Source: Candidatus Electronema halotolerans
GTDB taxonomy: Bacteria > Desulfobacterota > Desulfobulbia > Desulfobulbales > Desulfobulbaceae
NCBI GenBank assembly: GCA_942493095.1
Contig: OW818675.1
Coordinates: 1,380,001 to 1,412,000, forward strand
DNA: 32,000 nucleotides
Direction of reading: 5' to 3'
Part shown: one piece after another, positions 6,215 to 32,000 of the stretch
Layout of the letters: the number at the start of each line of letters is the position of its first letter
Position numbering within the stretch: position 1 is the stretch's first letter
The notes under the pieces: generated by a model
Seen by the model: the letters and a program-made list of their open reading frames with translations, nothing else
Told to the model about the DNA's origin: nothing
The model's database searches: none
Translations under genes and position numbers: made by a program

Positions 6215-7817
<1,603 letters not shown>

Positions 7818-8538: not shown

Positions 8539-8543
8539 AAACG

Positions 8544-12584: not shown

Positions 12585-13448
12585 TTAGAACATATTTGGA
12601 TATTTGTAAAATCCCCTGCCGTTTTTCCGCCCGTGCAACCCGGCAGCAACCATTTTTTTCAGCAAAGGAGAACAGCGGAATTTGCTGTCCTGATATTCCT
12701 CATAAAGAACCTGCAACGTGTCCACCACGGTGTCAAGTCCGATCAGATCAGCGGTTTCCAGCGGCCCCATTGCATGACCGTAGCATTTCTTGAAGATATC
12801 GTCTATCTCTTTTGGCTCGGCAACATGCTCCATGACTAAATTGGCCGCCTCATTCATAAACAAATGCGACAGACGATTGGCGACAAAGCCCGGCGCATCG
12901 TTGACAAGAATGCAGTCCTTGCCCATCTGCCGCAGAAACTGCTTTGCCGCAGCAACAGTTTCCTCTGAAGTGTGATAACCACGGATGGTTTCCACGGTTT
13001 TCTTCATCGGCACCGGATTCATGAAGTGCATGCCAATGACCCGGTCTGGCCGCTGAGTCACAGAAGCAATGCGGGTGATCGGCACTGCCGAGGTGTTGGC
13101 GGCAAAAATGCAATGCGCAGGGCAGATCGGATCAATCTGCGCATAGACCTCCTGCTTGACGCTCCACTTTTCTGTGACATTTTCAACAACAACGTCAGCA
13201 GATGCAAGCAGCTCGCAGTTTGTGACAAAACTGATCCTTCCGAGCAGCTCCTCCGAGTCTGCCGCCGGACTTTCCTTGCGCATGAAGCCCTGAAAACGGA
13301 TGCTGTTTCTGATCTGTCCCTCGGCTTTTTGCAGAATATCCTCTGCAAGATCAATCAGGATCACCTGATGCCCGGTCTGGGCAAGATTCTGGGCCACCCC
13401 GCAGCCCATCACTCCGGCTCCGACCACGCCAACTGTCTTAATATTCAT
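12585..13448 (-). CDS. 3-hydroxyacyl-CoA/ACP dehydrogenase (FkbK/Asm13/ZmaG-like)
   Basis: 287 aa. Rossmann N-terminus VGVVGAGVMGCGVAQN, HFMNPVP, and the C-terminal dimerisation region GPLETADLIGLD. Its AAGGAAA ribosome-binding site overlaps the stop codon of the megasynthase gene. Confidence 0.9.
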   Translation of the reverse strand: MNIKTVGVVGAGVMGCGVAQNLAQTGHQVILIDLAEDILQKAEGQIRNSIRFQGFMRKESPAADSEELLGRISFVTNCELLASADVVVENVTEKWSVKQEVYAQIDPICPAHCIFAANTSAVPITRIASVTQRPDRVIGMHFMNPVPMKKTVETIRGYHTSEETVAAAKQFLRQMGKDCILVNDAPGFVANRLSHLFMNEAANLVMEHVAEPKEIDDIFKKCYGHAMGPLETADLIGLDTVVDTLQVLYEEYQDSKFRCSPLLKKMVAAGLHGRKNGRGFYKYPNMF

Positions 13449-13457: not shown

Positions 13458-16400
13458 TTATGTTATTGCCGCAGGCTCAGTCTCCGGGACGGCGGCCATC
13501 CCGGCTGCGCGTTCCAGACAAATTTGCATCTGCGTCGCCAGCACCTGCACATGCGGCTGATTGACCATTGTATGATGTTTTCCAGGCACTTGAATCACTT
13601 CCACAGCTTGGGCCGCATAGTCCTGCCAGCCATGCTCCGGCGGCAGAGTTGGATCCTCCGGCCTTCTTTCCGCAGCTTGGAAGAGCGTGACCCTGCCGCC
13701 GCAGGTCTTGGCCTGAAAACGCAACGAAGCGGACATATTGCTTTTATAGACCCGGATCAGCCGCTTGGTCTGCATCAGGTCAACATCAGGGGGAAAGATG
13801 TTGATCTTTCGGCCTTGTTCAACGACATGGGCTAACTGCTCATCAGGACTGAGCTGGCGCAGATAGTCCAAGGACAGGGCAGCATCGGCTTCGGCAAAGT
13901 AATCGACAAAAAACTGCGCGTCATCTTCCGGTTCCTGAAGAATCTCCCTGATGATGTGCGGCGCAATGGCATCCAGCAAGCCAAGGAAGGTGACAGACTC
14001 TCCCTGCGCCTCCAGCCGGGCGGCCATTGCAAAGGCGACCAGTCCGCCGAACGACCAGCCCATGAGCTGATAGGGGCCGTGCGGCTGCACTGTCTGCATG
14101 GCTTCAATGTACTGTGCTGCCATCTCAGCAATATCCGGGCAAGGCTCCTGCTCCGCTTCCAGTCCGAATGCCTGGAAGGCGTAAAACGGCTGCTCCGGGC
14201 CGAGCTGCCGGGCCAGCTCAAGATAGCAGAGCACATTGCCGCCCGCCGGATGCACGCAGAAGAGCGGGGCCTTTTTGCCGCTGCTCTGAATGGGAACAAG
14301 GCAGGACCACGGCAGCAGCTCAGTCTGCCGCCGCAGAATCTTGGCGATTTCCTCAATGCTGCTGTTATGGAAAAGAGTGGTCAGGGCGATGCGCTGTTTG
14401 AACTGCTGCTCCACCTGCGCCATCAGCCGCACCGCCAGCAGGGAATGTCCGCCCAGCTCAAAGAAATTATCTTTGATGCCGACAGGATGCACTTTGAGCA
14501 GCTCTTCCCAAATCTGGGTCAGGCGCAGCTCCACCGTGTCACGCGGAGCCTGATATCGTTTATCCCTGCGCTGCGACTCAGGTTCCGGCAGAGCTTTGCG
14601 GTCGATCTTGCCGTTGGGAGTCAGGGGCAGTTTGTCGAGCACGGTGAAGCTGCCGGGCAGCATGTAGGCAGGCAACTGCTCGTGGAGGAAGTCGCGCAGC
14701 GCAACGGCGAATTCCGTTTTATCCACAAGGTCGGCAGCCGGATTGTTCGCATAGCTGCGCCAAGGCTTGGGCAGGGGTGCAGGCCGGTTCGGCGTGAAGC
14801 GGGCGGCAAGCTCTTTTCGTTGAAACACCGCTGTATAATGGAATTTTCCGCCATAATGCAGGGAGCAGGTGTATGCCGTGTCCTCGGTCAGAGTGCGCAA
14901 GGCTTCCGGGGCAACGAATTGGCCCGCGTCTTCTTGCACCAAGGCCCGCAAGTCGGCAACAGAGCCGTCAAAATGGGCAAGCTGCTCCAGCAGCTTCTTT
15001 TCTTCAGCGAGCCGGGCATTGGGTATGGTGCTGATTTCAATGACCTCGCTTTGCTGCTCGGCCAGCTTATGGCTGACCTGCTCCAGCGTCACGGCAGCTT
15101 TGCCCCAGTCCAAACGCTGCACCTGCGCTGTTGGCAGAGCAGGTCTTGCCGCATCAAGATGCAGGGTCACATCATAGCGGAAGCAGGTCATCTCGTTCTG
15201 AGCAAGCCCTTGTTTCAGCTCCAGCCGCACTTGACTGACCGCTGGAATCCGCTCTTGCAGGGCCATGAACAAGTCAGGATCAAGCAGCAGTTCCCGCTCC
15301 CGGCTCATGCTGGCCTGCACCCGCTGCCGCAGCTCCTTCACGGCCAGCCCGTCATCGGCCTGAAAAAGCTGCACCGACGCATGAAAGGCTTCCAAGAGCT
15401 GGAAGTTGCGCACATCGCCAATGAAAATGGAGCCGCCGGACGCAACTGCTGCCGCTGCTTTTTCCAAAACCTTGAGCAGATAGTCAATGGACGGGAAATA
15501 CTGAATGACTGAGTTGAGAATCACCAGATCAACGGAACCCGGCTGAAGGCTGTCAATCTGATCAGCAGCGAGCTGCCGCAGCATTACCCTGTCGCTGAAG
15601 TCCCAGTCCTGCTGCTGGGTTTCAATCCACGCCAAGGCTTCGGAAGAAATATCCGCGCCAATATACTGCTGGCAGAAAGGAGCCAAGCGGAAGAGCAACA
15701 TGCCGGTGCCGCAGCCGATTTCCAAAATGCGGGCTGGTGCCAGCGACAATATTCGCGCTACAGTGCCGTCAAGCCATTCCTGCATCTCCTGATCAGGAAT
15801 CGGCTGCATGGTGTAGCTGCTGTTCCAGCCGATGGTGTTGCGCTGCCGCTCGACCGGCGCATCAGCAGATTGGCTGTAGGTGTCGTTCCAGACCTGCTGC
15901 CACTGCTTGATTGTTTCCGTCTGCGCCGCCTGATCAGCACTGTCAGCTTCACTGGTCAAGCGCGGCACAATGTATGCGGCGAGCTGCTCCTGCTCCTGAT
16001 TGGCAATCACAGCGGCCTCCCGCACACGCGGATGCCTGTTCAGAGCCGCCTCAATTTCGCCCAGCTCAATGCGGAAGCCGCGCAGCTTGATCTGATGATC
16101 AATTCGTCCCAGACATTCCAAGATGCCGTTGCGGAGCAGCCGGGCCAGATCACCGGTTTTGTAGATGCGTTGCCGCTGGCCGAACAGTTCTATTTCGACG
16201 AATTTTTCCGCTGTCAGCTCAGGCCGGTTCAGATAGCCTCGCGCCAAACCATGCCCGCCGATGCACAGCTCTCCCGGCAGACCCGGCGGAACGAGGCCGC
16301 CGTGCTCGTCGAGAATATACATCTGAGTGTTGCCGATGGGCTGCCCGATCAATTCCGGCCGTTCCGGCCAGCTCGCAACATCCTGCATGGACGACCAAAT

Positions 16401-19400
16401 CGTGGTTTCAGTGGGGCCGTACACATTCCAAAGCCGCTGACAGTTGGCAAGCAGTTTTCTCCCAAGTTCCGCTTGCATGGCCTCGCCGCCGCAAAGGATG
16501 GTCAGCGGGCTGCGCTGCTGCCAGCCGCTGTGCAGAAGCATTTTCCATGTCGCCGGAGTGGCCTGCATCACAGTGATCTGTTCCTGCTCAAGAACCTCCA
16601 TAAGCAGGTCGCCGTTCATGGCTGTTTCTCTGTCAATAAGCACACACTGGCTGCCGCTGATCAACGGCAGATACAATTCCAAGGCCGCAATGTCGAAGGA
16701 CAGCGTGGTCAGGGCTAAGACTTTGTCATTTTCTTTTATGCCGATGCGCTGCTGCATATAACAGAGGAAATTCACCAGCGCGGCGTGCTCAATCATAACT
16801 CCTTTAGGCCGTCCTGTTGAACCGGAAGTGTAAATCACATAGGAGAGATGCTCCGGGCTGCTCCGTCTGCTCAGATTGTCTGCGGAATGCAGAGCAATTT
16901 CAGGCCAGCCGCTGTCCAAGCAGATGACTTCGGCACTGTGTTCCGGCAGGTGCGCCAACAGGTGCTGCTGGGTCAGCAGCACTTTCACTGCCGCATCATT
17001 GAGCATGAAGTGCAGCCGATCTTGCGGATAATCCGGGTCCAGCGGCATGTATGCGCCGCCCGCTTTGAGAATGCCGAGCAGACCGACCAGCATATCCAAA
17101 GAGCGCTCCACATAGATGCCGACCAAGGTGTCAGGCCCGACTCCCAAGGCCAGCAGATGCCGGGCCAGCTGATTGGCCTGCTGATTGAGTTCGGCAAAGC
17201 AGAGCTGCTCTTCAGCAAAGGCAACTGCAATATTGCCGGGACAGCGGACAGCCTGCGCCTCAAAAAGCTCAACCAGGGTTTTGTCTTGCGGGCAGGCGAA
17301 ATCCCTTTGATTCCAAGTTTGCAGCTCCTGCTCCTCCGCCGATGTCAGCAAAGAGAACGAGGAGTACGGCTGCTCTGGTGCTTTAACAATCTCCCGCAGC
17401 AGGGTCTGGAAATGCCCGGCCATCCGGGAGATGGTCTCTGCCGCGAACAAGTCGGTGGAATATTCCCAGTCGCAGACAAAGCCGTCCTCCTGTTCAGCAA
17501 TGCTCAGGGTCAGATCAAACTTGGCGGTTGTCAGCTCCGGCTCTAAGAAGGAAACAGTCACCCCGCTGAACTCCAGCGATTCCTGCGGCGCGTTCTGGAG
17601 AATGAACATCACCTGAAACAGCGGCGAATAACTGAGACTGCGGGCCGGGTTGAGCTGTTCCACCAAGTATTCAAAGGGAATGTCCTGATGGCTGTAGGCT
17701 TCCAGAGCGGTCTGCCTGATCTGGGTGAGCAGTTCAGCAAAGGTCTGGGCCGGGCCGAGCTGGCTGCGCAGGACCAGCGTGTTGACAAAAAAGCCGATTA
17801 AATCCTCGGTCTGCCGCTGGGTGCGGTTGGCAATGGGACTGCCCACGAGCAGGTCTGTCTGGCCGCTGTAGCGGTGCAGCAGGACGTTGAAGGCGGCCAG
17901 CAAGGTCATGAAAACGGTTGCCCCGTGCTCACGGCTCAGGAGCCTGACCGCTTGCGCCAGTTCGGCAGGCAGGGCTGATTGGAGATGCCGGCCCTGATAG
18001 CTGATTTCTGCCGGGCGGGGATAATCTGTGGGCAGTTCGAGCAGTTCAGGCACGCCAGCCAGCTTGCCGCGCCAATACTCCAACTGCTCATGCAGGGCCT
18101 TGCCGTGCAGCCAGCTCTTCTGCCAAGCGGCAAAATCCGTGTATTGAATCGACAGTTCCGGCAGGTTTGCTTTCCGATTTTCGAGACAGGAACAGTACAG
18201 CTCGCCCCAGTCGCGCACCAGGATGCCCATTGACCAGCCGTCGCTGATAATATGGTGCATGTTGAAGAGCAGTATCTGCTCCTGTGCGCCGAGCCGGAGC
18301 AGATGCAGACTGAACAGAGGCCCGGTGGTCAGCTCAAAGGCGGTGCCGCCATGCCTGCCAATCCATGCCTGCACCTGTTCCTCCTGTTCTGCGGCAGGCA
18401 AGCTGCTGAGATCAGCAATAGTCAGCGGGTCATAGAGGGCAAGCCGCTGCACAGCTGCTGTTCCGGCCTGCTCCGGGAAGTAGAGGCGCAGGCTCTCGTG
18501 CCGCGCAATCAGGGCTGTGGAGGCCCGGCGCAGTGCTCCCTCATCCAGTGGGCCGCGCAGTCGCAGGGCAATGGGCATGTTGTAGGCCGAATTCTGTTCT
18601 TCCAACTGGGTCAGAAACCAGAGCCGCTGCTGGGCAAAGGACAGTGCCAAGGGCGCGTCTTGAGCCAGCGGGCTGATGGTCGGCAGAGCCTGACCGCGCT
18701 GCTGCTGCCCCAGCCATGCCGCCTGTTCAGCCAGCACGGGCAGCTCAAAAACGATGCGCAGCGGCAGATCAACACCAAAGCTTTCGCGGATGCGCGAGAC
18801 AAGCTGAGTTGCCAGCAGGGAATGGCCACCGATCTCAAAGAAATTGCTCTGCACATCAGCAATGTCCATCTTCAGGGCCTGCGACCAGAGCGCGCAGAGC
18901 AGCTCTTCGGTCTCGGTCTGCGGGGCTTGCGCCTGCTGCCCGGAGGCAATGAAGTCAGGTCGCGGCAGAGCCTTGCGGTCAATCTTGCCGTTGGCAGTCA
19001 GGGGCAACTTGTCGAGCACGGTGAAGCTGGCCGGAATCATCCAGTCGGGCAGGATTTGCTTCAGGGCCTCACGCAGAACAGCAGGCAGAGCAGCAGATTC
19101 TGTTTTTGCAGCATCGACCGTGAGATAGGCAGCCAGCAGCTTGCCGCCCTCCTGCTCCCAGACAACTGCTGCCGCTTCTCTGACCGCCTCCTGCCGCACC
19201 AGAGCCGCCTCAATCTCGCCCAGCTCGATGCGGTGGCCGCGAATTTTGACCTGATTGTCCTCCCGGCCCAGAAATTCAATCGTGCCGTCCGGCAGGCGGC
19301 GGCCCAAATCGCCGGTCTTGTAGAGCCGCTCGCCGGTGCGGGGGTGGGTGATGAAGGAAGCCTCTGTTCTCTCCTGATCGCGCCAATAACCTTGGGCCAG

Positions 19401-22400
19401 ACCAATGCCGCCGATATACAACCGGCCTGCCGTCCGCACCGGACACGGCGCAAGCTGTTCATTGAGGACATGAAAGGTCTGATTGGTCAGAGGCCGACCG
19501 TAGGGAATGCTCGTCCATGCCGGGTCAACCGCGCCGATAGAATGGAAGATTGACCAGATAGAGACCTCTGTGGCTCCACCCAGACTGATCAGTTCAGCAG
19601 CAGGCCAGAGCTGGCGGATGCGCTCCGGCAGATCAAGAGGAATCCAGTCGCCGCTCATCATCACCAAGCGCAGCGGCGCAGGCAAGGGCTGCCCGTGCTG
19701 ATCTTCAACCAGCATCTGCATCAGGGCGGGCACGCTGTTCCATACTGTCACGCTGTGCCGGGTCAGCAGTTCCGCCCAGAGCGAGGGATCGCGGCGGGCT
19801 TCCGGCGCAGGCATGACAATGGTGCCGCCGACAGCCAGCAGTCCAAAAATATCATAGACCGACAGATCAAAATGCAGGGCGGAAAGGGCCAGCACCCGGT
19901 CTGCGGCGCTGATGCCGAAACGGCGGTTGATGTCCAAAATCGTGTTGACCGCGCCCCGATGATCTATGGCCACGCCTTTGGGCAGGCCGGTTGAGCCGGA
20001 GGTGTAGATCACGTAGGCCAAATCAGTCGGCTGCTGCTGGAGGTCCGGCAATTTTTCTTCTGCGCCCCCGGCGGTGCGGGCTGCGACAATGAGCGGCTGA
20101 ACCGTGTCTGGCCAATCAAGCTGTGCGGACAGATGCGGCTGAGTGAGAGCCAGCCGGACATCGCCCTGTTCGAGCAGATACTGCTGCCGGACAACAGGCA
20201 GTTCCGGGTCAACAGGCAGATAGGCCGCTCCAGAGAGCAGAATGCCGAGCACGGCCACGACCTGCTCCCAGCCTTTCTCCATGACCACAGCCACAAGCTG
20301 GTTTTGCGCCGCGCCCAGCTCCCGGAGCTGGCCAGCAAGGAGCATTGCTTCTTGGCGCAGTTCGGCGTAGGTCAACGCCCGTCCTGCGGCAACAACTGCC
20401 AGCCGCTCCGGCCCGGCCTCGGCCTGTTGCAGAAAAAGGGTGTGCAGCAGCGCATCTGACAGCGGCGCGGCAGTGTCATTCCATTCGACGAGTTGCTGTT
20501 TTTCCGTGTCTGTGAGCAAAGGCAGGCTGCGGATGTCTGTCTCCGGCTGCCGCACAATGCCGTCCAGCAGCACGGCGAAACATTCAGCTATGCGCCGTAC
20601 GGTTGCCTCTGCAAACAGGTCAGAGGCATATTCCCAGCCAAGCACAAGCTCCCCGCCGCGTTGCTCCGCGCTCAGGGTCAGATCAAATTTAGCCGTTGGA
20701 AAATCCTGCGCCACTGGTTCGATTTCCAGACCGGGCAGTTGAACGCCAAGCTCCTCGTTATTCTGGAACACAAACATGACTTGGAAGAGCGGACTATGGC
20801 TGAGGCTGCGCTCCGGTCGGAGTCGCTCCACCAGATGCTCGAACGGAACATCCTGATGCGCGTAGGCATCCAGCGCAGTGCGCCGCACCTGGCCGAGCAG
20901 GGTGCTGAAGGTGATGCCAGTTTGGCAGCGGATGCGCAGAGGCAAGGTGTTGACAAACAAGCCGATCAGTCCTTCGGTCTGCCGGAGCGTGCGCCCGGCG
21001 ATGGGGCTGCCGATGACAAGGTCATCCTGACTGCTGTGCCGTTGGAGCAGGACGCTGAAGGCGGCCAGCAAGGTCATGAACAGGGTGCAGTTCTCCTGCC
21101 GGGCCAGTTCATGCAGCCGCTGAGTCAATTCCGGGGCGATGCGGCTTTCCAGATGGCCGCCTTGATAGCTCTGCACTGCCGGACGCGGATGATCAGCAGG
21201 CAGCTGAAGCAGGGGCGGCGCGCCGGTGAGCTGCTCCTCCCACCATGCAAGCTGCCGGGTCAGCAGGTCTCCGGCCAGCAGCTCCCGCTGCCATGCCGCA
21301 TAGTCGGCGTACTGCACTGGCAGCGACCGCAGCTCCGGGCTTTGTCCTTTTGCCAGCGCGGCATAGATTTCTCCTGACTCCCGGAGCAAAATGCTCATGG
21401 ACCAGCCATCGCTGATAATGTGGTGCATGTTGAAGAGCAGGACATGCTCCTGCTCGTTGAGCCGAACCAGCTCCAGGCGGAGCAGCGGGCCGCGCTCCAG
21501 ATCAAAGGGCCGGGCCGTGTGCTCCTCAAGCCGCTCTTGGAGCGCAGCTTTCTGTTTCTCGGCAGCAAGAGCCGTCAAGTCGCTCATGGCCAGCGGGTCA
21601 TAAACCGCAATGAGCCGCAGCCCGGCTTGGCCGTCACGATCAGGAAAACTCATCCGCAGGCTCTGGTGCCGTTCGGTCAGCAGGACAAAGGTCTGCCGCA
21701 GGGCGGCAATGTCCAGCCTGCCGCGCAGCCTGACCGCCGCAGGCATGTTATAGGTTGCGGAAGGGCCTTCCAAGCGGGCCAAAAACCAGAACCGCTCCTG
21801 CGCGGGCGAGAGGCGCAGCGGCACTGTTTCCGGCAACGGCTGAATCTGCGGCAGAGTGCCGCCCCGCTGCTGCTGCTCCAGCCAGACCGCCAAATCCGCC
21901 AGCACCGGATGTTCAAACAAGGCCCGCAGGGGCATTTCCACGCTAAAGCTGTCGCGGATACGGGCGACCAATTGCGTCGCCAGCAGAGAATGACCGCCCA
22001 GCTCGAAAAAATGCGCGGCAATACTGCGCACCTCTGTTTTCAACACAGCGGCATACAGCCCGGCCAGCAGCATTTCCGTCTCTGTGCGCGGCGGCACCGC
22101 CTCTGCTCCTGTCTGCGGCGCAGCCGGTTCCGGCAATGCCCTGCGGTCAATTTTGCCGTTGGGAGTCAGGGGCAGCTTGTCGAGCACGGTGAAGCTGGCC
22201 GGAATCATCCAGTCGGGCAGGCTTTCCTTGAGAAAGGCCCGTAAAGCCGGGGCATCAAGCTCCGCCCCGTTCGCTGCCATCAGGTAGGCGGCAAGGAATG
22301 TATTGCCGTCATTCTCACGGAGCACAAGCACAGCTTCCGCAACCGCTTCATGTTTGGTCAGAGCCGTCTCAATCTCGCCCAGCTCAATGCGGAAGCCGCG

Positions 22401-25400
22401 CAGCTTGACCTGATGATCAATCCGGCCCAGATATTCAAGATTGCCGTCCGGCAGCCAGCGGGCCAAGTCGCCGCTGCGATAAATGCGCTCCGTCCTGCCG
22501 AACAGCTCAATTTCAATAAATTTCTCCACTGTCAGCTCCGGGCGGTTCAAATAGCCCCGCGCCAGACCGGCTCCGGCAATGCACAGCTCGCCTGGCAGGC
22601 CCGGCGGAACGAGCTGCATCTGCGCATCAAGCAGATAGATGCGATAACCCGGCAATGGCTTGCCTATCGGCATTCTCCGGGCAGGTTCATCCGCCTGCGC
22701 AAAGCAATGCACAGCAGCGCAGACTGTGGCCTCGGTCGGGCCGTAGCCGTTGAGAATATGCAGGGCAGGCGCAAGATTGCGGTATCGCTGCATCAGTCCT
22801 TGGCTGATTGGCTCCACGCCCACCAGCAGCCGCTGCCAGTCAAGGGCGGCAGTGCGCTGCTCCAGCTCATTTGCCAGCGGCTCCAGCAAGGCCGGGGGCA
22901 GATACATGCTGTTGATCTGTTGCGCAAGCAGGTGCTCGGCAAGTTCAGCCGGGCTGATGTCTGATTGCAGGTCAAGCAGATGCAGGCTGCCGCCGAAGCA
23001 GAGATGCGTGAATATCTCCCATACGGAAACATCAAAAGAAAATGCGCCAACGGTCATACCGTGCAGCGGCTGGCGGGCCGGGGCAAGCTGCTCAAAGCCG
23101 TGCAGCAGCATCGTCACGCTGCCCTGCTCGATCATCACGCCCTTGGGTTTTCCTGTTGAACCGGAGGTGTAAATGACATAAGCGAGATTCTCCGGCTTGC
23201 TCCTGCGCGGCGGATTGCTGTCAGGCTGATTCTCAAACAGAAATGGTTCATCCAAGTCAAGGCGGGTTCCGGCAAAATCCGGCAATCGCTCATGCAGATG
23301 CGTCTGGGTGAGGAGAATCTGCGCGCCGCAGTCCTCAACCATGAAACGCAGCCGTTCTTCTGGATAACTCGGATCTAAAGGCACATAAGCCCCACCCGCT
23401 TTGAGAATGCCGAGCAGGCCGATGATCATTTGCGGCGAGCGTTCAGCGCAGATGCCGACTAATGTCTCCGCCCGCACTCCGCGTTCCATCAGGGCATGAG
23501 CGACTTGATTGACTTTTTTGTTAAGCTGCTGATAGGTGATCCGCTCGTCTGCAAACACAACAGCAATATTTTCCGGGGTCTTTTCAACCTGCTCCTCGAA
23601 CAGATCAGACAGTGTCTTATCCTTCTGATATTCCGCCGCCGTGTCGTTCCATTCGATGAGCTGCCGCTTCTCCTCCTTCGTGAGCAGGGGCAGACGGGCG
23701 AGCTGTTCCTGCGGAGCAGCGAAAATGCCTTGCAGCAGCACCTGCAAGTGTCCGCTCATCCGGGCAATGGTCTCAGGCCGGAACAGGTCGGTGCTGTATT
23801 CCCAGTCGCAGGCAAAACAGCCTTCCCGCTCCTCAATGCTCAGGGTCAGATCAAACTTGGAGGTTCTGTTTTCCGTTTCCAAAACAGTCGCCTGCAAATC
23901 ATCCAGCGCCAGTTTGTGCTCCGGCGCATTCTGAACCACAAACATGACTTGGAAGAGCGGGGCATGACTCAGGCTGCGGCTGGGATTGAGCTGCTCCACC
24001 AAATATTCAAAGGGAATATCCTGATGGTTGTACGCTTCCAGTGCGGTTTGCTTCACCTGCCGGAGTAGCTGGGGAAAGGTCTCCTGCTCGTCAACAACTG
24101 TGCGCAGGACAAGGGTGTTGACAAAAAAGCCGATCAGATTTTCCGTGGCATGATGGGTGCGGTTGGCAATCGGGCTGCCGACCAGCAGGTCGCTCTGGCC
24201 GCTACAGCGGAAGAGAAGGACTTTGAAGGCGGCCAGCAGGGTCATGAACACCGTTGCGCCCTGCTCCTGACTGAACTGCTTGATGCGCCGGGTCAGCTCC
24301 CGGTCCAAGCTGCTTTTCAGATGGCCGCCCTGATAGCTCGTCACAGCGGGCCGGGGATAATCTGTGGGCAGCTCCAGCAATTCCGGGGCAGCAGCAAGTT
24401 TTTCCCGCCAGTAGGCAAGCTGCTGTTCCAGCACCTTGCCTTGCAGCCATGTTCTCTGCCAAGCTGCATAGTCCGTGTATTGAATGGGCAAGTCCGGCAG
24501 CACCGGCTGCCGGTTCCGGGCAAAGGCGGTGTACAGCTCGCTCCAGTCGCGGATCAGAATGCCGATGGTCCACGCATCACTGATGATATGGTGCATGTTG
24601 AGCAGCAGGATATGCTCTTCCGCATGCAGCTTGAGAAGATGCAGCCGCAGCAGCGGCCCGGTGCTCAGATTGAAAGGTTCCTTGGCATGGGCGGCAATCC
24701 ACTCTTTGCGCAAACGATTCTGCTCTGCTGCGGACAACTTGCTGATATCTTGGATTTCCAAGGGGTCATAGGCCGGAAGCCGCAGCACCGCTGCTTGGTC
24801 ATTGCTGATCGGAAACGACAGGCGCAGGCTCTCGTGCCGCTCAATTAAGGCGGCAAATGCTTGGCGCAGGGCGGTCTCGTTCAATTTGCCCGCCAGATGG
24901 AGCACGCCGGGCAGGTTGTAGGTTGCGCTCTCTCCCTCCAACTGGGCAAGGAAATGCAGCCGCTGCTGACCAAAGGACATGGCTAAAGGCGCGTCTGCGG
25001 CCTGCGGCAGAATGGGCGGCAACGCAGCGGCATCCTGTCCCTGCTGCGCTTCCAGCCTTATGGCAAGGTCTTCCAGGACAGGATGCTGAAAGAGGATATC
25101 CAAGGGAATATCTGCGGCAAAGACCTCCCGCAGGCGGGACAGCACCTGCGCGCCCAGCAGGGAATTGCCGCCTAACTTGAAGAAATCATCAAAAACGCCA
25201 ATCGGTTCAATCCCCAGAAGCAGCTGCCATATTTCGGCGATTTTCTGCTCTGTTGCAGTGCGGGGGGCAAGATAGTCAACATCGCTGTCCGGGCGGTTAT
25301 AGGTTGCAGCCGTGCGGGCATCTGCAAGCGAAGCCGCTCTCTCTGAGGAGACTTGTTCCGTTCCGCTGGCAGATGATTCATAATGCTGCCGCGCAACCGG

Positions 25401-28400
25401 CTCAATCCAATATCGCTGCCGTTCAAAAGGATAAGTCGGCGCAGGAATGCGCAGACGTTGCTCGTCCGTATAAAAAGTAGTCCAGTCAATCGGCACATTT
25501 TTCAGCCACAACTGGCCGAGGGTGTTGAGCAGCCAGTCAAGATCATCCCGATTTGAGCTTGCGCTGCGCAGGATATTCAAGGCGGTCAGATTTTTGTGCA
25601 GCGGGCGGTGCTGCTGGGCGAAACTGGTCAGCACCATGTCAGGCCCCAGTTCCAGCAGGATATCCGCGTCCTCGGCTAACAGAGTTTGCAGCCCTTGGGA
25701 GAACTGGACAGGATTGAGCAGGTGCTCGCACCAGTAGTCGGCAGAAAGCACCTGCTCCGCTGTAATCCATGCGCCGGTGAGGTTGGAAACATAAGGCCGC
25801 TGCGGCGGGTGGCGGACAATTTTTTCCAGCTCTGCCCGGAATTGCGGCAGCATCGGTGCCATCATGGGCGAGTGGGCCGCGTTCAGGGTCTGCAAGCGGC
25901 TGTGCATGATTCTCCGGCTGGTCAGCTCGTTGCTGAACCTGCTGACCGCTGCTGCCGAGCCGGAGACCGTGGTCAGATTGGGAGCATTCTGCGCGGCAAT
26001 GAACACATCATCCGGGAGCAGCGGCCTGACTTCATCAGCAGGCAGGAGAATGCCGAGCATTTCTCCGGCAGGCACACTCTGCATCAGCCTGCCCCGCACG
26101 GCAACCAAGCGCAGCGCGTCCGGCAGCGAGAAGACTCCGGCTATGCAGGCGGCCACATATTCGCCGATGCTGTGGCCGATCATGGCGGCTGGCCGGAGAC
26201 CCCAGGCCATGCAGAGCTGGGCCAGCGCATATTCGATGACAAAGAGGGCGGGCTGGGCCGCCTGCGAGCCTTTCAAATCCGGCTGTTCAGTCCCGGACGG
26301 ATAGATCAGCTCCCGAATATCAAGATGCAACTGCGGCAGCAGCAGTTCCGCGCATTCATCAACCACAGCCCGGAACTTCGCCTCCTGCTGATACAGCCCC
26401 AAGGCCATGTTGACATGCTGCGAGCCTTGGCCGGGAAACATGAACACTGCCTGCGCAGGCTGCTCCGAGGTGCGGCTCCGGTGCCATTGCTTGCACTTGT
26501 CCTGGCCGAGCTGTTCGGCAAGCTCGCGGCAATCGCGGCCAACAATAAATCCCCGATGGGCAAAGGCACTGCGGCCTGCATGAAGGGTATAGGCAAGATC
26601 AGCCAGTTCAAACTCGGTCTGATTATGCAGAAATTCAGCCAGATCGATGCGGTACTGCCGTAGGGCGTTTTCTGTTTTGGCGGACAGGCAGAGCAGGTGC
26701 AACGGTCTTGAGGCAGAGGATTGCTGCGGCGGAGCTTCCTCCAGCACGACATGGGCGTTGGTGCCACCTATGCCGAAAGAGCTGACTCCGGCCCGCCGTG
26801 GTTCGACAGCTTCCCATGCTCTGAGTTCGGTGTTGACAAAGAACGGACTGTCGGCAAAATCAATCTGCGGATTGGGGGTCTTGAAATGGAGGCTGGGCGG
26901 AATCTCCCGGTGCTGCAAGGCCAGCACAGTCTTGATCAGGCCGGTCACGCCTGCGGCGGTGTCCAAATGCCCGACATTGGTCTTGACCGATCCCAGAGCG
27001 CAATACCCCGTCTTGCTGGTCTGCGCCTGATAGGCTTGCTTCAACGCGCTGATTTCAATCGGATCGCCAAGGATGGTGGCTGTGCCGTGCGCTTCAAGAC
27101 AGCTGATGGATTCATAGTCCAGCCCCTGCATGGCCGCGCTGATCACCTGCGCCTGGCCTTCGACACTGGGAGCGGTGAAGCCGATTCTCCCCTGCCCGTC
27201 ATTGTTGATGGCCGAGCCTTTGATGACCGCATGAACCGTGTCGCCGTCTTGCAGCGCGTGACTGAGGCGTTTCAAAACTACTGCCGCCACTCCGGCCCCG
27301 CCGACCGAACCTTGAGCCTCGGCATCAAAGGCGCGGCAATGGCCGTCTGGCGAGAGAATCATGCCCTCCTGATAGAGATAGCCCTGCTTCTGCGGGAAAA
27401 ACACCGTCACGCCGCCAGCCAGGGCCATCCGGCATTCATTGCGGAGCAGGCTCTGCCGGGCCAGATGGACCGCCACCAAGGAGGTGGAGCAGGCTGTGTG
27501 AACGCTCAAGACCGGGCCGCGCAGGTCCAGCTTATAGGCGGCGCGGGCGGCAAGAAAATCCTTGTCCCCGCCCATGAGTACCTGCTGCCGACCGACCAAG
27601 GCCAGCAGCTCCTGGTTGGGCAGGAGATTGTTGAGAAAATAGGTGCTGGTTCCTGCCCCGGCAAAGATGCCGACCGGAAAGGGCATCCTGCTCACGTCAT
27701 AACCGGTATGTTCAACTGCTGTCCAAGCGGTCTCCAAAAACAGCCGCTGCTGCGGATCGAGCAACTCCGCTTCCTTGGGCGGATAGCCAAAGAATGGCGC
27801 ATCAAAATACTCAGCCTGATCAAGCACGCCGCCAGCTCTGACATAATCAGGGCGGTTGAAGAGTGCAGGTGCAACGCCGCTGGCCAGCAGCTCCTCATCG
27901 GAAAAAAAGCTGACCGACTCCACGCCGTTGCGCAGATTCTCCCAAAATTCATCAATATTTTTTGCACCGGGAAAACGTCCTGCCATGCCGATGACAGCAA
28001 CATCCTCATCGCTGGAAGGTTGTGCTGCGACTTGTATTTTGTTTGATTTCTCCGCTTCTTCCGCTTCTTTCGCATCATTCTGCGTCAGGTGGGCAGCCAG
28101 ACTGTGAATGGTCGGATATTGAAAGAGCGTCACCACTGGCAAGGACAGCTGCAACATCTTTTGTAGCTGACTCTGCACTTGGAGCAGGAGCAGGGAATGG
28201 CCGCCCAGATCAAAGAAATTCTCATGGATGCCGACCTGCTCGATTTTGAGCACCTGCTGCCAGACCGTTGCAATGTGCTGCTCCATGACCGTCTGAGGCT
28301 TGGTCAGGCTGGTTGCGGCTTGCTGCTCAGGCTCCGGCAGGGCGCGGCGGTCGAGCTTGCCGTTCGGAGTCTGGGGCAGCGTATCCAGCACCATGCAATG

Positions 28401-31400
28401 CGTGGGCACCATCTGCTCTGGCAGGCGGGTGCGCAGCCACTCCTTGACTTCAGCCGAAAAAAGTGTCTGCTGGGGCAGCAGGGTCAGATAGGCGGCCAAG
28501 GAGGCGGAGCCGTCAGACTCATGTAGGATCACGGCTGCTTCCTTGATCGCCTCATGCTGGAGGAGCATGGCCTCAATCTCGCCCAGCTCGATGCGGAAGC
28601 CGCGCAGCTTGACCTGATGATCGAGCCGTCCGAGATATTCGAGATTGCCATCCGGCAGCCAGCGGGCCAAGTCGCCGGTGCGGTAGATGCGTTCCGTTCT
28701 GCCGAACAGCTCAATTTCGACAAATTTCTCCGCTGTCAGCTCAGGCCGGTGCAGATAGCCCCGCGCCAGCCGTGGCCCGGCAAGGCAGAGTTCACCCGGC
28801 AGGCCCGGCGGCACCGGACGCAGCTGCGTGTCTAAAAGATATATTTTGGTGTTGGCAATCGGGCAGCCTATCGGCACAACCTTGCCCCTGCCGGTCTCCT
28901 CAAGCTGCGTGGTGATTTCAAACAAGCTGCTGGAAACCGTTGCTTCGGTCGGGCCGTAAGCATTGAGAATGGTTGTTTTATCAGACAGGAAACTTCGGCT
29001 CTGGCGGGCCAGCTCAAAGGAAAGGGCTTCTCCGCCGAGAATGAGCAGACGCAGGCTGGCAAGATGGGCGGGATTGGCCTGCCGCAGAAACTGCTGCCAA
29101 TAGGGCGGCGGCAGATCAGCGACCGTGACTTTTTCTGTGGCAATAAGGCGTTGTAGCTCTTCTCCTTGGAGCAGATTGCTGCGCAGGCCGATCAGCCGTG
29201 CGCCGCCGCAGAGGGTGGTGAAAATCTGCTCAACCGACGGATCAAAGTTGAGCGAGGTGAATTGGAGCACCCGGTCGTCCGCGTGCATGGCATAACGGAC
29301 AAGCGAGGCACTCAGATGCTGACTGAGGGCCGCATGGTCAATCAGCACACCTTTTGGTTTGCCCGTGGAGCCGGAGGTGTAGATGATGTATGCGAGATGC
29401 TCCGGCCCGCTCTGCCGGGGCGGATTTTCCTCCGACTGTCCGGCAACGGCTGCCGGATCATCCAAGCGCGCTGTCTGGCCGGAAAAATTCGGCAGCCGTT
29501 GCAGCAGACCGCTCTGAGTCACGAGCACCTTCAGGCCGGAATCCTTAATCATGAAATGCAGCCGCTCCTGCGGATACTCAGGATCAAGCGGCACGCAGGC
29601 CCCGCCCGCCTTGAGAATGCCGAGGAAAGCGGCAATCATTTCCGGCGACCGCTCGACACAGAGGCCGACCAAGGTTTCCGGCCCGACTCCGAGCTGCATC
29701 AGATGATGGGCCAGCTGATTGGCCCGACAGTTCAGCTCATTATAAGTGAGCTGCTGATCAGCAAAGACAACGGCAATATTTTCCGGTGTGTTCGCGACCT
29801 GCGTCTCAAAGAAATCAACCACGGTTTTATCTGCCGGGAAATCCGTTTCTGTCCGGTTCCATTCGGTCAATTGCTGGAGATCCGCTGCTGTCAGGAGGGA
29901 CAGATCGGCAATCGGCTGTTCCGGGGCGGCAAGAATGCCCTCCAGGAGCACCTGAAAACGCGCCGCCATCTGGGCAATAGTTTCAGGCCGGAACAGGTCG
30001 GTGCGGTATTCCCAGTCGCAGACCAGGCCGCCGTCCTGCTCTGTCATGCTCAACGAGAGATCAGACTTGGCGATTTTGTAATCCGGCTTGAGCAGGGTCA
30101 GTTTCGCCCCGCCCAGCACCAGCTCTTCCTGCGGCGTGTTCTGAAGGGAGAACATGACCTGAAAAAGCGGCGCATGACTCATGCTTCGGGCCGGATTGAG
30201 CTGCTCCACCAAATAATCAAAAGGAATATCCTGATGGTCGTAGGCTTCAAGCGCGGTCCGGCGCACCTGCCGCAGGAGATCAAGGAAGCTCTGCCTGCCG
30301 TCAATCCGGCTGCGGAGGACCAAGCTGTTGACAAAAAAGCCGATCAGCCCTTCGGTCTGGGAATGGGTGCGGTTGGCAATGGGGCTGCCCACAGCCAGAT
30401 CATCCTGACCGCTCCAGCGGTGCAGCAGGATATTAAAGGCGGCCAGCAGGGTAATGAAGAGCGTTGCCCCCTGCTCGCGGCTGATCTGCTTGATTTTTCC
30501 GGTCAGCTCCTGATGCAAGCTGCTGCGCAGATGTCGGCCCTCGGTGCCCATGACCGGCGGACGCGGAAAATCTGTAGGCAGTTCGAGCAGCTCCGGCAGC
30601 CCGACGAGCTGATTGCGCCAATAGGTGAGCTGGTCTGACAAAATGCCCTGCTCCAGCCATTGCCGCTGCCAGGCCGCATAGTCGCTGTACTGAATCGGCA
30701 GTTCCGGCAGTTCCGGCTCCTGGCCCGCTGCCAAGGCATTATAAATCTCCTTCCACTCCCGGATCAGCACCCCGACCGACCAGCCGTCGCTGATGATGTG
30801 GTGCATGTTGAAAAGGAGCATCTGCCGCCCGTTGCTCAGATTCAGCAGATGCAAATCCAGCAGCGGGCCGCTGCTCAGGTCAAAATTCAGCCGGGCATGT
30901 TCGCTGATGAGTTCATGAATCCGCCTGTCCTGTTCCGACTCAGGCAATGTGCTGAGATCGCTGACATGGAGCGGATTATACGCCTCGAATACGCGGGCGG
31001 TCGCTTGGCCGTCAAGGTTCGGAAAGCAGGTGCGCAGGTTCTCGTGCCGCTCAATCAGGGCAAGCAAGGAGGCGGCGAGCAGTTTTTCGTCCAGCCGCCC
31101 TTTGCAGTCAAAGACGGCGGGAATGTTATATACAGCCTCCTCCTCCTCCAACTGCTCCAGAAAAAGCAGCCGCTGCTGGGCAAAGGATATCGGAGCTGTT
31201 TCTTCTTTGGCAAGACGGAGAATGGGCTGCTCAAACAGGGTCTTGCGCCGGAGAAAATTGAGAATTTCTTCTTTGCGCTCAGTCAGCTCGGTGCGCAGTT
31301 GCTCATTCAGAGTGCCTTTTGGAGCCTTGAAACGCAACCGCCCGTTTTCAGACCAGATTTCTATGTGGAGCCGCTTCAGGTCAACAAGAAAATCTTCCAG

Positions 31401-31409: not shown

Positions 31410-32000
31410 AGCTCACCTTCCTCCATTTCAGCGACTGCATCGCTTTCTTCAGCAACGGCAAGCAGCCGGGCCAGTTCGCTCACTGTGGGCAGGGCGAAAA
31501 GCTGCCGCAGGGACAGCTCTGCGGCAAAGGCGGTGCGGATGCGCGAGACCAATTGCGTGGCTAAGAGCGAATGGCCGCCGAGATCAAAGAAGTTGTCATG
31601 CACGCCAATCTGCTCTGGCCGCCGCCGGAGCACTTCGGCCCATATCTCGGTCATGCGCTGTTCCTCGTCTGTGCGGGGCGCAACCCGGCTGGGCTGTTCT
31701 GCGGCTTCCACTGACAGGTCTGCCAGCGCACGGTGGTCGAGCTTGCCGTTGCTGGTCAGAGGCAGGGTATCGAGCAGAAGGAAGCCCGCAGGCACCATGT
31801 AATCTGGCAGGCGGCTTCTGAGCTGGCTGCGCAAAACTTCAATCAGGTCAGCAGGCGCCTCTTCGGTCGGGACAATGTACGCCAGTAAACAGGCATTGCC
31901 GTTCTTGTCATCAAGCAGCACCACTGCCTCTCGCACTGCCTCGTGCTCATGCAGAACCGTCTCGATTTCGCCCAGCTCAATGCGGAAGCCGCGCAGCTTG
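31406..32000 (-). CDS. NRPS, 3' end only (A-domain C-terminus, T domain, acidic C-terminal docking tail); the gene continues beyond the window edge
   Basis: The reading frame stays open to position 32000 (KLRGFRIELGEIETVLHEHEAV...). LPDYMVPAGF, SNGKLDHRAL, and FFDLGGHSLLATQ (Ser codon at 31568..31570). It ends ...AVAEESDAVAEMEEGEL, and its TGA overlaps the GTG of the next gene. Confidence 0.9.
   Translation of the reverse strand, partial: KLRGFRIELGEIETVLHEHEAVREAVVLLDDKNGNACLLAYIVPTEEAPADLIEVLRSQLRSRLPDYMVPAGFLLLDTLPLTSNGKLDHRALADLSVEAAEQPSRVAPRTDEEQRMTEIWAEVLRRRPEQIGVHDNFFDLGGHSLLATQLVSRIRTAFAAELSLRQLFALPTVSELARLLAVAEESDAVAEMEEGEL

What the first reader, a model, noticed from the sequence alone, without database searches (positions are those of the whole stretch)
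25605..26447. The cis-AT domain carries NAAH where malonyl and methylmalonyl ATs carry HAFH or YASH
The AT has a normal GQGSQ and GHSIGE nucleophile. The specificity motif about 100 residues downstream (RLQTLNAAHSPMM, nt 25872-25883) has Asn and Ala in the two discriminating positions. ATs that take ACP-linked glycolate-derived extenders are known to deviate from HAFH/YASH. A hydroxymalonyl-ACP cassette is encoded immediately downstream of this gene. Linking this AT to that extender is inference, but it makes a coherent and testable prediction.
Basis: partly seen in the sequence, partly recalled or inferred. Interest (0 to 1): 0.65.

Follow-up and report, generated by a model that had tools for sequence, protein, structure and literature searches.

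The report
Odd PKS acyltransferase beside hydroxymalonyl genes
The only acyltransferase domain in this peptide-polyketide gene cluster has a rare, conserved change in its substrate pocket. It most likely loads a hydroxylated building block made by the four genes next door, but this is a well-supported prediction and not a demonstrated function.

Summary
A complete FkbH/ACP/two-dehydrogenase cassette starts 9 nt after the gene's stop codon.

NAAH is rare: it appears in 2 of 518 ATs from the best-matching megasynthases, and both are this gene type. It is conserved, along with other pocket changes, in a collinear Sphaerotilus-type ortholog (60% identity overall, 67% in the AT). That orthologous cluster keeps the same cassette directly downstream. 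It has no other AT from 2.4 kb upstream of its first NRPS gene to 10 kb past the cassette. This supports the link between the AT and hydroxymalonyl-ACP.

- The AT is no closer to ZmaA-AT (38% identity) than to malonyl-type ATs. Its nearest relatives (about 50% identity) carry HAFH.
- Most ATs found next to such cassettes (43 of 51 loci) keep HAFH and instead carry GYSxG and GLGxH, which this AT lacks.

Verdict: this is probably an independently evolved hydroxymalonyl-ACP-type AT, a new variant of a known kind. It is biochemically untested and of moderate interest.

The parts
13458..31409 (-). Hybrid NRPS-PKS megasynthase, 5983 aa. Domain order: TubC-type docking domain, C-A-T, KS-AT-T, C-A-T, C-A-T, C-A(MT)-T-TE.
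   Evidence: ORF list and translation. Pfam domains. Collinear with Sphaerotilus sp. WP_310463067.1 (5989 aa) at 60% identity.
26883..28007 (-). KS domain of the single PKS module. The catalytic Cys/His/His are present (TACSTS, EAHGTAT, NVGHLD).
   Evidence: Pfam ketoacyl-synt and Ketoacyl-synt_C. Motif positions.
25470..26462 (-). AT domain, aa 1650-1980 (Pfam core nt 25611-26447). It is the only AT in the window.
   Evidence: PF00698, 184 bits. AT-HMM scan of all six reading frames of the window finds one hit. AlphaFold model pLDDT 95.9, with TM above 0.9 to solved PKS ATs.
26418..26432 (-). GQGSQ motif, aa 1660-1664. This is the canonical form. Most cassette-adjacent ATs have GLGxH here.
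26250..26273 (-). KGSQAAQP, aa 1713-1720, at the position of the RVDVVQ / QTxxTQ specificity motif. The Thr that is invariant in 103 HAFH neighbours is Ser here. The octapeptide is identical in the orthologs.
26160..26177 (-). GHSIGE nucleophile motif, aa 1745-1750, with catalytic Ser1747. It retains His, unlike the GYSxG of ZmaA-AT and of most cassette-adjacent ATs.
   Evidence: PMC4207774.
25899..25907 (-). M-H-S, aa 1835-1837, at the 'RXR' carrier-recognition position (-8 to -6 relative to the motif). No basic residue is present. Orthologs have L-F-S or L-F-T, and ZmaA has M-C-M.
   Evidence: RXR/MXW definition from PMC4207774.
25872..25883 (-). NAAH, aa 1843-1846, in the HAFH/YASH column. 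His1846 is the catalytic His.
   Evidence: Conserved in P0417, P0422, P0425 and P0426.
25044..25253 (-). Carrier domain that follows the AT and accepts the extender unit. It is PCP-like (GGNSL, nt 25158-25172).
12585..13448 (-). 3-hydroxyacyl-CoA-dehydrogenase-family gene, the first oxidation step of the cassette (FkbK/ZmaG-like role, inferred).
   Evidence: PF02737 and PF00725. Same position in related cassettes.
12315..12554 (-). Free-standing 79-aa ACP of the cassette.
   Evidence: PF00550, 30.4 bits. A 79-aa ACP sits at the same place in L005, L007 and L095.
11075..12259 (-). Acyl-CoA-dehydrogenase-family gene, the second oxidation step (FkbI/ZmaE-like role, inferred). It overlaps FkbH by 20 nt.
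   Evidence: PF02771, PF02770 and PF00441. It is fused to FkbH in the ortholog cluster.
10036..11094 (-). FkbH-family protein (HAD-IIIC phosphatase plus acyl transfer). It loads a glyceryl unit onto the ACP. The DxDxT motif and the invariant Cys270 are present.
   Evidence: TIGR01686, 292.5 bits against a cut-off of 146.65. Invariant columns in alignment A1.
31406..31936 (-). 3' end (A-T) of the upstream NRPS gene, cut by the window edge. It is 58% identical to the end of the 2496-aa NRPS that precedes the orthologous megasynthase.
   Evidence: NCBIfam hits. tblastn against L095.

Best explanation
The AT is an active extender-unit acyltransferase with a remodelled substrate pocket. It most likely takes (2R)-hydroxymalonyl from the free-standing ACP of the co-transcribed cassette and transfers it, through Ser1747, to the carrier domain of its own KS-AT-T module.

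Proposed route (inferred):
1. FkbH loads a glyceryl unit from a glycolytic intermediate onto the 79-aa ACP.
2. The two dehydrogenases oxidise it to hydroxymalonyl-ACP. With no O-methyltransferase gene present, it stays hydroxymalonyl.
3. The AT moves the unit onto the module's carrier domain.
4. The KS condenses it with the upstream peptidyl chain.
5. Because the module has no KR, an alpha-hydroxy-beta-keto unit passes to the next C domain.

Shown here: the anatomy, the intact catalytic residues, the rarity and conservation of the pocket changes, the conserved synteny with the cassette, and the absence of any other AT in the orthologous cluster.

Inferred: the identity of the extender unit, the use of the ACP as donor, and the chemistry of the product.

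By sequence this AT descends from the malonyl-type GQGSQ/GHSIG/HAFH lineage, not from the GYSxG lineage of ZmaA-AT. If the assignment is right, it is an independent specificity switch that converges on the xAAH motif of ZmaA (GAAH) and of methoxymalonyl ATs (FAAH).
For: 1. The cassette is complete and starts 9 nt after the megasynthase stop codon on the same strand.
2. This is the only AT in 32 kb.
3. The KS (Cys/His/His), the AT (Ser, Arg, His) and the carrier Ser are all intact.
4. 146 columns are at least 75% conserved in 103 GHSxG/HAFH neighbours. Of these, 18 are changed in both this AT and its ortholog. Four are 99-100% invariant in the neighbours: Thr to Ser in the QTxxxQ motif, Ser1842 to Leu, His1843 to Asn and Phe1845 to Ala. 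These lie in the known specificity motifs (PMC4207774). Phe to Ala removes the residue that blocks alpha-substituted units in malonyl ATs (established knowledge of HAFH/YASH).
5. The orthologs P0417 (Sphaerotilus sp. WP_310463067.1), P0422, P0425 and P0426 keep GQGSQ, KGSQAAQP, GHSIGE and (S/T)RLQTLNAAHSP at 60-67% identity.
6. The orthologous cluster (L095/L096, GC 68.5% against 56% here) has the same order, megasynthase then 3HCDH, ACP and ACAD-FkbH. It has one AT only. The upstream 2496-aa NRPS lists no KS or AT domain, and the genes before it are small non-PKS genes.
7. In 37 of 45 cases the cassette-partner-type AT lies upstream of the cassette, and in the loci inspected in the same gene that ends just before it. 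This AT occupies the same place.
8. xAAH together with a non-basic RXR position recurs in the two known classes of glycolate-type AT: ZmaA with GAAH and M-C-M, and methoxymalonyl ATs with FAAH and MxW-like.
9. No crotonyl-CoA carboxylase/reductase or other extender-unit pathway is encoded in the window or in L095/L096.
Against: 1. There is no specific kinship with ZmaA-AT. Identity is 38%, against 39% to CurL and about 50% to many HAFH ATs. In the NJ tree the sister is an HAFH AT from a Psychrosphaera MAG, with 89/100 bootstrap support.
2. The AT lacks the GYSxG and GLGxH signature carried by ZmaA/ZmaF (GYSxG) and by the ATs in 43 of 51 cassette loci (both motifs). Those ATs keep HAFH.
3. xAAH is not diagnostic. 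VAAH ATs (L003, L004) have no FkbH within 10 kb. YAAH ATs have basic RXR positions. SpnD-AT (AAAH), the best structural match, uses CoA-linked alkylmalonates.
4. The same cassette occurs without any PKS or NRPS within 10 kb in L093 and L094, so adjacency alone is not proof of a link.
5. The window's own upstream region, beyond nt 32000, could not be read. The absence of a second AT is shown only for the ortholog.
6. No biochemical data exist.
Confidence: 0.65

Rival explanations
1. The AT takes a CoA-linked extender: malonyl-CoA, methylmalonyl-CoA, or like SpnD/AntD a larger alkylmalonyl-CoA. The neighbouring cassette would then serve another acceptor, such as an AT outside the window, a starter C domain, or a process unrelated to the PKS.
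For: - The overall sequence, GQGSQ and GHSIG are of the CoA-type malonyl lineage, and the nearest relatives carry HAFH.
- The AT lacks the GYSxG/GLGxH signature of typical cassette partners.
- The best structural match is SpnD-AT (AAAH), which uses CoA-linked substrates.
- Cassettes exist without a nearby PKS.
- Arg is kept at position -5.
Against: - The invariant Phe of HAFH is replaced by Ala and the invariant Thr of QTxxxQ by Ser. Both changes are conserved in orthologs, which argues against plain malonyl specificity.
- The YASH, GHSQG and RVDVVQ features of methylmalonyl ATs are absent.
- No CCR or other alkylmalonyl-CoA pathway is present in the window or in the ortholog cluster.
- In the ortholog cluster no other AT exists to use the co-conserved cassette.
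- Both dehydrogenases are present, so the cassette makes an extender unit (hydroxymalonyl) and not a glyceryl starter unit.
Confidence: 0.25
2. The AT is relaxed or promiscuous. It accepts both malonyl-CoA and hydroxymalonyl-ACP, or several alpha-substituted units, and gives a mixture of products.
For: - The small residues in NAAH, Ala in place of Phe or Ser, enlarge the pocket as in the broadly selective SpnD-AT (AAAH).
- Hybrid motifs such as HASH are linked to relaxed selectivity (PMC7489565).
Against: - The exact 11-residue stretch RLQTLNAAHSP, and KGSQAAQP, are strictly conserved across 60%-identical orthologs. This suggests selection for a defined pocket.
- ZmaA-AT (GAAH) prefers its natural substrate, hydroxymalonyl-ACP (PMC4207774).
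Confidence: 0.07
3. The AT is degenerate or inactive, and the unusual motif reflects decay. The module would be skipped or loaded in trans.
For: This AT departs from otherwise invariant positions.
Against: - The catalytic Ser1747, Arg1772 (VRGRLM) and His1846 are intact.
- The same changes are conserved in a diverged ortholog.
- The model is confident, with pLDDT 95.9.
- No trans-AT gene is present in the window or in L095/L096.
Confidence: 0.03

Closest known systems
ZmaA-AT of the zwittermicin A pathway (Bacillus cereus; PDB 4QBU), the biochemically proven hydroxymalonyl-ACP-specific cis-AT
   Same: - It is a cis-AT in a hybrid NRPS-PKS line that also encodes an FkbH/ACP/two-dehydrogenase route to hydroxymalonyl-ACP.
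- It has xAAH in the YASH column (GAAH against NAAH).
- It has Met at -8 and no basic residue at -8 or -6 of the RXR position.
- It is the best sequence hit in the PDB (E 8e-68), with TM 0.92.
   Different: - Identity is only 38%, no higher than to malonyl ATs, and the two do not group in the tree.
- ZmaA has GYSFG and GNGSQ, whereas this AT has GHSIG and GQGSQ.
- The RVDVVQ-position motif is RMEFSQ in ZmaA and GSQAAQ here.
- The module here has no KR.
GYSxG/GLGxH/HAFH ATs found beside FkbH cassettes in cyanobacteria, Thiotrichaceae, Planctomycetes, Streptomyces and others (this survey; function inferred from association)
   Same: - They occupy the same genomic place, in the megasynthase gene just upstream of a 3HCDH-ACP-ACAD-FkbH cassette.
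- The cassette proteins are 60-77% identical to those here.
- The module context is often C-A-T-KS-AT.
   Different: - They keep HAFH and change GHSxG to GYSxG and GQGSQ to GLGxH. This AT does the reverse.
- Mean corrected distance from this AT is 1.00 to them, against 0.89 to GHS/HAFH ATs.
Actinomycete methoxymalonyl-ACP ATs (FK520 FkbA, concanamycin and similar; FAAH type)
   Same: They have GHSxG retained, xAAH in the YASH column, hydrophobic non-basic residues at the RXR position, and a glycolate-derived ACP-linked extender.
   Different: - They belong to the RVDVVQ/GHSQG (methylmalonyl-like) lineage and are about 30% identical to this AT.
- Their clusters encode an O-methyltransferase.
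- Some methoxymalonyl ATs carry plain YASH (PMC7489565).
SpnD-AT / AntD-type broadly selective ATs (PDB 5YDA; AAAH)
   Same: It is the best structural match (TM 0.93, rmsd 1.4 Å). It also has xAAH, with small residues that open the pocket for alpha-substituted units.
   Different: - It uses CoA-linked alkylmalonates made by a CCR, and no such gene is present here.
- It has basic residues at the RXR region (FRR).
- Identity is 39%.

Membership tests
PKS/FAS acyltransferase (Acyl_transf_1, malonyl-CoA:ACP transacylase fold) | Significant match to the family model, and the two-subdomain AT fold | tested here: met
   PF00698 at 184 bits against a cut-off of 32.7. AlphaFold pLDDT 95.9, with TM 0.91-0.95 to solved PKS ATs.
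PKS/FAS acyltransferase (Acyl_transf_1, malonyl-CoA:ACP transacylase fold) | Catalytic Ser in GxSxG, catalytic His about 100 residues downstream, and the carboxylate-binding Arg | tested here: met
   GHS1747IGE, NAAH1846 and VR1772GRLM.
Malonyl-CoA-specific AT | HAFH motif, with Phe blocking alpha-substituents, and the (Q/E)TxxxQ motif | tested here: not met
   NAAH and GSQAAQ are present instead. His, Phe and Thr are 100% conserved in 103 neighbouring HAFH ATs.
Methylmalonyl-CoA-specific AT | YASH, GHSQG and RVDVVQ motifs | tested here: not met
   NAAH, GHSIG and GSQAAQ are present instead.
Hydroxymalonyl-ACP-specific AT (ZmaA-AT type) | Transfers hydroxymalonyl from a free-standing ACP, with preference over CoA-linked malonates | not testable with these tools
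   This needs in vitro acyl-transfer assays. It was shown for ZmaA (Chan and Thomas 2010, cited in PMC4207774 and PMC6164871).
Hydroxymalonyl-ACP-specific AT (ZmaA-AT type) | The cluster encodes FkbH, an ACP and two dehydrogenases, without an O-methyltransferase | tested here: met
   The same set is conserved next to the ortholog.
Hydroxymalonyl-ACP-specific AT (ZmaA-AT type) | GYSxG in place of GHSxG (ZmaA GYSFG, ZmaF GYSLG) | tested here: not met
   GHSIG is present here and in all orthologs. GYSxG is present in the ATs of 43 of 51 cassette loci.
Hydroxymalonyl-ACP-specific AT (ZmaA-AT type) | xAAH in the YASH column and non-basic residues at RXR (-8 and -6) | tested here: met
   NAAH with M-H-S here, and L-F-S or L-F-T in orthologs. 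Not diagnostic on its own.
Hydroxymalonyl-ACP-specific AT (ZmaA-AT type) | Phylogenetic grouping with ZmaA-AT | tested here: not met
   38% identity. The NJ sister is an HAFH AT, with 89/100 bootstrap support.
Methoxymalonyl/hydroxymalonyl-ACP biosynthesis cassette (FkbH-FkbJ-FkbK-FkbI type) | FkbH domain above the curated cut-off, a small ACP, a 3HCDH-family gene and an ACAD-family gene in one operon | tested here: met
   TIGR01686 at 292.5 bits against 146.65. PF00550, PF02737/PF00725 and PF02771/PF02770/PF00441. The order is identical in L005, L007, L089, L090 and L095.

The most novel reading that the evidence does not exclude
This AT and its Sphaerotilus-type orthologs are a third, independently evolved sequence solution for selecting a glycolate-derived, ACP-borne extender unit. 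It was built on a malonyl-type GQGSQ/GHSIG scaffold by four pocket changes: Thr to Ser in QTxxxQ, and SHAF to LNAA. Because the module lacks a KR, it would place an alpha-hydroxy-beta-keto (reductone-like) unit in the middle of a nonribosomal peptide.
Probability: 0.5. Interest if true: 0.55.

Novelty: new variant of a known kind. Interest (0 to 1): 0.4.

Why it matters
AT domains decide which building block enters a polyketide. The rules for ACP-linked glycolate-type units are poorly defined (PMC7489565), and only one hydroxymalonyl-specific AT has been characterised structurally (ZmaA).

If this AT does take hydroxymalonyl-ACP, it shows that a malonyl-type AT can be converted by a handful of pocket substitutions. 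That would be a compact, testable recipe for PKS engineering. It would also be a warning for genome-mining software, which reads GQGSQ/GHSIG as malonyl. It further predicts an unusual alpha-hydroxy-beta-keto unit in an uncharacterised peptide from environmental Proteobacteria.

If the AT instead uses a CoA-linked unit, the finding is an ordinary motif variant.

Tried and rejected
1. Using the best PDB hit, ZmaA-AT, as evidence of kinship. Rejected: identity is 38%, the same as to CurL and SpnD, and far below the HAFH homologs at about 50%.
2. Testing whether xAAH in general tracks FkbH. The contexts of the VAAH homologs P0009 and P0056 (L003, L004) show no FkbH within 10 kb, so the motif alone is not diagnostic.
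3. Looking for KS orthology with the KS that precedes GYSxG ATs. All KS hits are 61-64% identical whatever the AT type, so this was uninformative.
4. Metagenome scan with the N-terminal docking/C region (alignment A2). The scan was wasted.
5. The source genome was not among the GTDB loci and could not be reached by exact look-up. The window's own upstream region therefore stayed unread. I used the ortholog contig instead, reached through cluster members P0423 and P0424.
7. Looking for the ortholog's cassette through the FkbH homologs P0154, P0156, P0158, P0159, P0162 and P0164. None lay next to the 5989-aa gene. These look-ups did yield the GYSxG pattern and the PKS-less cassettes.
8. Fold search. 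All PKS ATs score TM above 0.9, so it does not discriminate.
9. A literature search for NAAH together with acyltransferase and polyketide returned no paper.
Full report
**1. What is at the coordinates**

The finding lies inside one very long ORF, window 13458..31409 on the minus strand, encoding 5983 aa. Pfam gives this domain order: TubC-type docking domain, C-A-T, KS-AT-T, C-A-T, C-A-T, C-A(MT)-T-TE.

- GQGSQ at aa 1660-1664 (nt 26418-26432).
- GHSIGE at aa 1745-1750 (nt 26160-26177).
- RLQTLNAAHSPMM at aa 1838-1850, with NAAH at nt 25872-25883.

The catalytic His lies 99 residues after the catalytic Ser. The KS has its Cys/His/His, the AT has Ser, Arg and His, and the following carrier has its Ser. 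The module therefore looks functional. It has no KR.

**2. The cassette**

Four genes follow on the same strand, starting 9 nt after the megasynthase stop codon:
- a 3-hydroxyacyl-CoA-dehydrogenase-family gene (12585-13448);
- a 79-aa ACP (12315-12554; PF00550, 30.4 bits);
- an acyl-CoA-dehydrogenase-family gene (11075-12259);
- an FkbH-family gene (10036-11094; TIGR01686, 292.5 bits against a cut-off of 146.65).

This is the established gene set for hydroxymalonyl-ACP. PMC7489565 describes the same steps. No O-methyltransferase gene and no second AT are present in the window. The next gene downstream is a convergent prmA, so the cluster ends there. The upstream ORF, cut by the window edge, is the A-T end of another NRPS.

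**3. How unusual NAAH is**

I aligned ATs to a common HMM and read the HAFH/YASH column.
- Among the 120 closest short homologs, all 43-52% identical, 93 have HAFH and none has NAAH.
- Among 518 ATs in the 150 best representative megasynthases, NAAH occurs twice: in the query and in one other protein, P0417.

No paper in the searchable library mentions NAAH together with acyltransferase and polyketide.

**4. Is the AT a relative of ZmaA-AT?**

The best PDB sequence hit is ZmaA-AT (4QBU), the proven hydroxymalonyl-ACP AT. It carries GAAH, and M-C-M at the 'RXR' carrier-recognition position. This looked like strong support but is not.
- Identity to ZmaA-AT is 38%, to CurL 39% and to SpnD-AT 39%. 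Many HAFH ATs are about 50% identical.
- In a bootstrapped NJ tree the AT pairs with an HAFH AT from a Psychrosphaera MAG (89/100). It joins neither ZmaA nor the clade described in section 5.
- A confident AlphaFold model (pLDDT 95.9) matches SpnD-AT, ZmaA-AT, CurL and ClbI about equally, with TM 0.92-0.95.

By descent, then, this AT is a malonyl-type AT of the cyanobacterial/proteobacterial hybrid-PKS group.

**5. What ATs next to such cassettes normally look like**

The FkbH protein has thousands of homologs at 60-77% identity. I fetched 80 loci from species-representative genomes, plus several metagenome loci, and scanned them for ATs.
- 51 of the 80 loci have a full AT within 10 kb.
- 43 of those 51 have an AT with GYS[ILV]G in place of GHSxG and GLG[TDE][HQ] in place of GQGSQ.
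- 44 of 45 such ATs keep HAFH.
- The background frequency of GYSxG is 19 of 518.
- ZmaA (GYSFG) and ZmaF (GYSLG) share the His-to-Tyr change (PMC4207774).

The commoner signature of cassette-partner ATs is therefore GYSxG/GLGxH, not a deviation from HAFH. The window AT has the opposite pattern, GQGSQ/GHSIG/NAAH. It also raised a concrete rival: the real partner AT might sit upstream, outside the window.

**6. The ortholog answers that rival**

P0417 is WP_310463067.1, an 'NRPS/type I PKS' of Sphaerotilus sp. It is 5989 aa long, collinear with the window protein, and 60% identical overall (67% in the AT, about 80% in the KS). It conserves GQGSQ, KGSQAAQP, GHSIGE and ILFSRLQTLNAAHSP. Relatives P0422, P0425 and P0426 do the same.

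A near-identical copy lies on a 325-kb ENA contig (L095/L096, GC 68.5% against 56% in the window). There the megasynthase is split by a frameshift in a 6x long-read assembly. It is followed directly by 3HCDH, a 79-aa ACP and an ACAD-FkbH fusion.

The gene before it is a 2496-aa NRPS with the domains C-A-T-sulfotransferase-C-A and so on. Its length leaves no room for a KS-AT. Before that come only small non-PKS genes. An AT-HMM scan of both loci finds a single AT. The window's truncated upstream ORF is 58% identical to the end of that NRPS.

So the NAAH AT and the cassette are inherited together across a large divergence. In the ortholog the NAAH AT is the only AT available to use the cassette's product.

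**7. Where the AT has changed**

146 columns are at least 75% conserved in 103 GHSxG/HAFH neighbours. Of these, 18 differ in both the window AT and P0417. Four are 99-100% invariant in the neighbours:
- the Thr of the QTxxxQ motif (Ser here);
- the Ser, His and Phe of S-H-A-F-H (Leu, Asn and Ala here).

These fall in two of the four regions known to govern AT specificity (PMC4207774). Loss of the HAFH Phe opens room at the alpha-carbon, and Asn could hydrogen-bond an alpha-hydroxyl (inference). The RXR position is M-H-S (L-F-S or L-F-T in the orthologs) and has no basic residue. This resembles ZmaA (M-C-M) and the FAAH methoxymalonyl ATs seen (MMRMRVPVD-FAAH, VFRWMVPVD-FAAH; FAAH is linked to methoxymalonate in PMC8944477).

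**8. Caveats**

- xAAH is not diagnostic. VAAH ATs lack FkbH nearby. YAAH ATs have basic RXR positions. SpnD-AT (AAAH) uses CoA-linked alkylmalonates.
- Most GYSxG ATs keep Arg at -6, so the RXR rule is not general.
- The cassette also occurs with no PKS within 10 kb (L093, L094).
- PMC7489565 states that methoxymalonyl-AT motifs are poorly defined, and the tetromadurin example carries YASH.
- Nothing here measures substrate preference.

**9. Conclusion**

The most likely reading (about 0.65) is that this AT is the dedicated partner of the adjacent cassette and loads hydroxymalonyl onto the KS-AT-T module. It would have switched from a malonyl-type ancestor by a few pocket substitutions that converge on the xAAH of ZmaA and the methoxymalonyl ATs. 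Without a KR, the module would give an alpha-hydroxy-beta-keto unit inside a peptide of about six amino acids.

The main rival (about 0.25) is a CoA-linked extender, with the cassette serving something else. Promiscuity (about 0.07) and inactivity (about 0.03) are minor rivals.

The AT cannot be filed as a ZmaA-type AT by sequence membership, because the GYSxG and phylogeny tests are not met. It plausibly works like one. Novelty: a new variant of a known kind. Interest is moderate, because the prediction is crisp and cheap to test and would add a compact specificity code for a poorly defined class of ATs.

Noticed in passing
L009-L088, L005, L089, L090 (AT domains mostly 3-7 kb upstream of FkbH at locus position ~10001): ATs beside FkbH/ACP/two-dehydrogenase cassettes carry GLG[TDE][HQ] + GYS[ILV]G + HAFH in 43 of 51 loci that hold an AT. 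The background frequency of GYSxG is 19 of 518. The His-to-Tyr change is shared with ZmaA and ZmaF. This looks like a general sequence marker of cassette-partner ATs across cyanobacteria, Thiotrichaceae, Planctomycetes, Streptomyces and Acidobacteriota.
   Followed up: partly
L076:7454-15241 (Aetokthonos hydrillicola) and L071 (Nostocales HT-58-2): Here the cassette is followed by an 889-aa AT(GYSLG)-ACP-FkbM-type methyltransferase protein. A stand-alone 429-aa AT comes next, with HAPH and hydrophobic residues (V-C-L) at the RXR position. No KS is nearby. Ten of the 120 closest homologs of the window AT belong to this HAPH type.
   Followed up: partly
L093:7573-11041 and L094:4856-8545: The same four-gene cassette occurs with no PKS or NRPS within 10 kb. 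In L093 it sits next to split transketolase genes and a RuBisCO-large-subunit-like gene. In L094 it sits next to 2-hydroxyacyl-CoA-dehydratase-like genes (HGD-D plus BcrAD activator). The cassette may therefore have uses outside polyketide extension.
   Followed up: no
L096:2478-9968 and L095:22938-28409: In the Sphaerotilus-type orthologous cluster the first NRPS carries an embedded Sulfotransfer_3 domain. The cassette is followed by TauE, a CysQ-like phosphatase and a CysN/APS-kinase gene (PAPS supply), and ACAD and FkbH are fused (747 aa). The product there is probably sulfated. The window has none of these downstream genes, and prmA follows its cassette.
   Followed up: no
window 25044-25253 (-), Ser motif GGNSL at 25158-25172: The carrier domain that the AT must load has an NRPS-PCP-like FFxLGGxSL motif, not the PKS-ACP LGxDSL motif. 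The GYSxG module of L005 also uses a PCP-like carrier (FFELGGHSL).
   Followed up: partly
L005:1-2123: The AT of this related cluster shows an exact internal duplication of about 130 aa (NLPGGSMLAVPL...TLSTLVN appears twice). This is probably an assembly artefact of the metagenome contig.
   Followed up: no
window 15390-15780 (-) within the last A domain: A methyltransferase domain (Methyltransf_12/11/25) is embedded in the final adenylation domain, ahead of T-TE. It predicts a methylated C-terminal residue.
   Followed up: no
window 932-1237 (-): A 101-aa ORF matches only the Cas12f1/TnpB-like TNB zinc-finger domain (PF07282, 28.8 bits). It looks like a remnant of a transposon-associated nuclease gene.
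   Followed up: no
window 4386-7817 (+) and 7960-9110 (+): Two ammonium-transporter genes and a P-II (GlnK) gene lie in tandem. Two ORFs of 192 and 188 aa follow with no family match in Pfam or NCBIfam. Both are conserved with the same neighbours in Logan contig L001.
   Followed up: no
(tool behaviour): the search for homologous proteins listed no protein longer than about 1.75 times the query length (579 aa for a 331-aa query, 3728 aa for a 2130-aa query). Domain queries therefore miss full-length megasynthases. The ortholog was found only through the representative search.
   Followed up: partly
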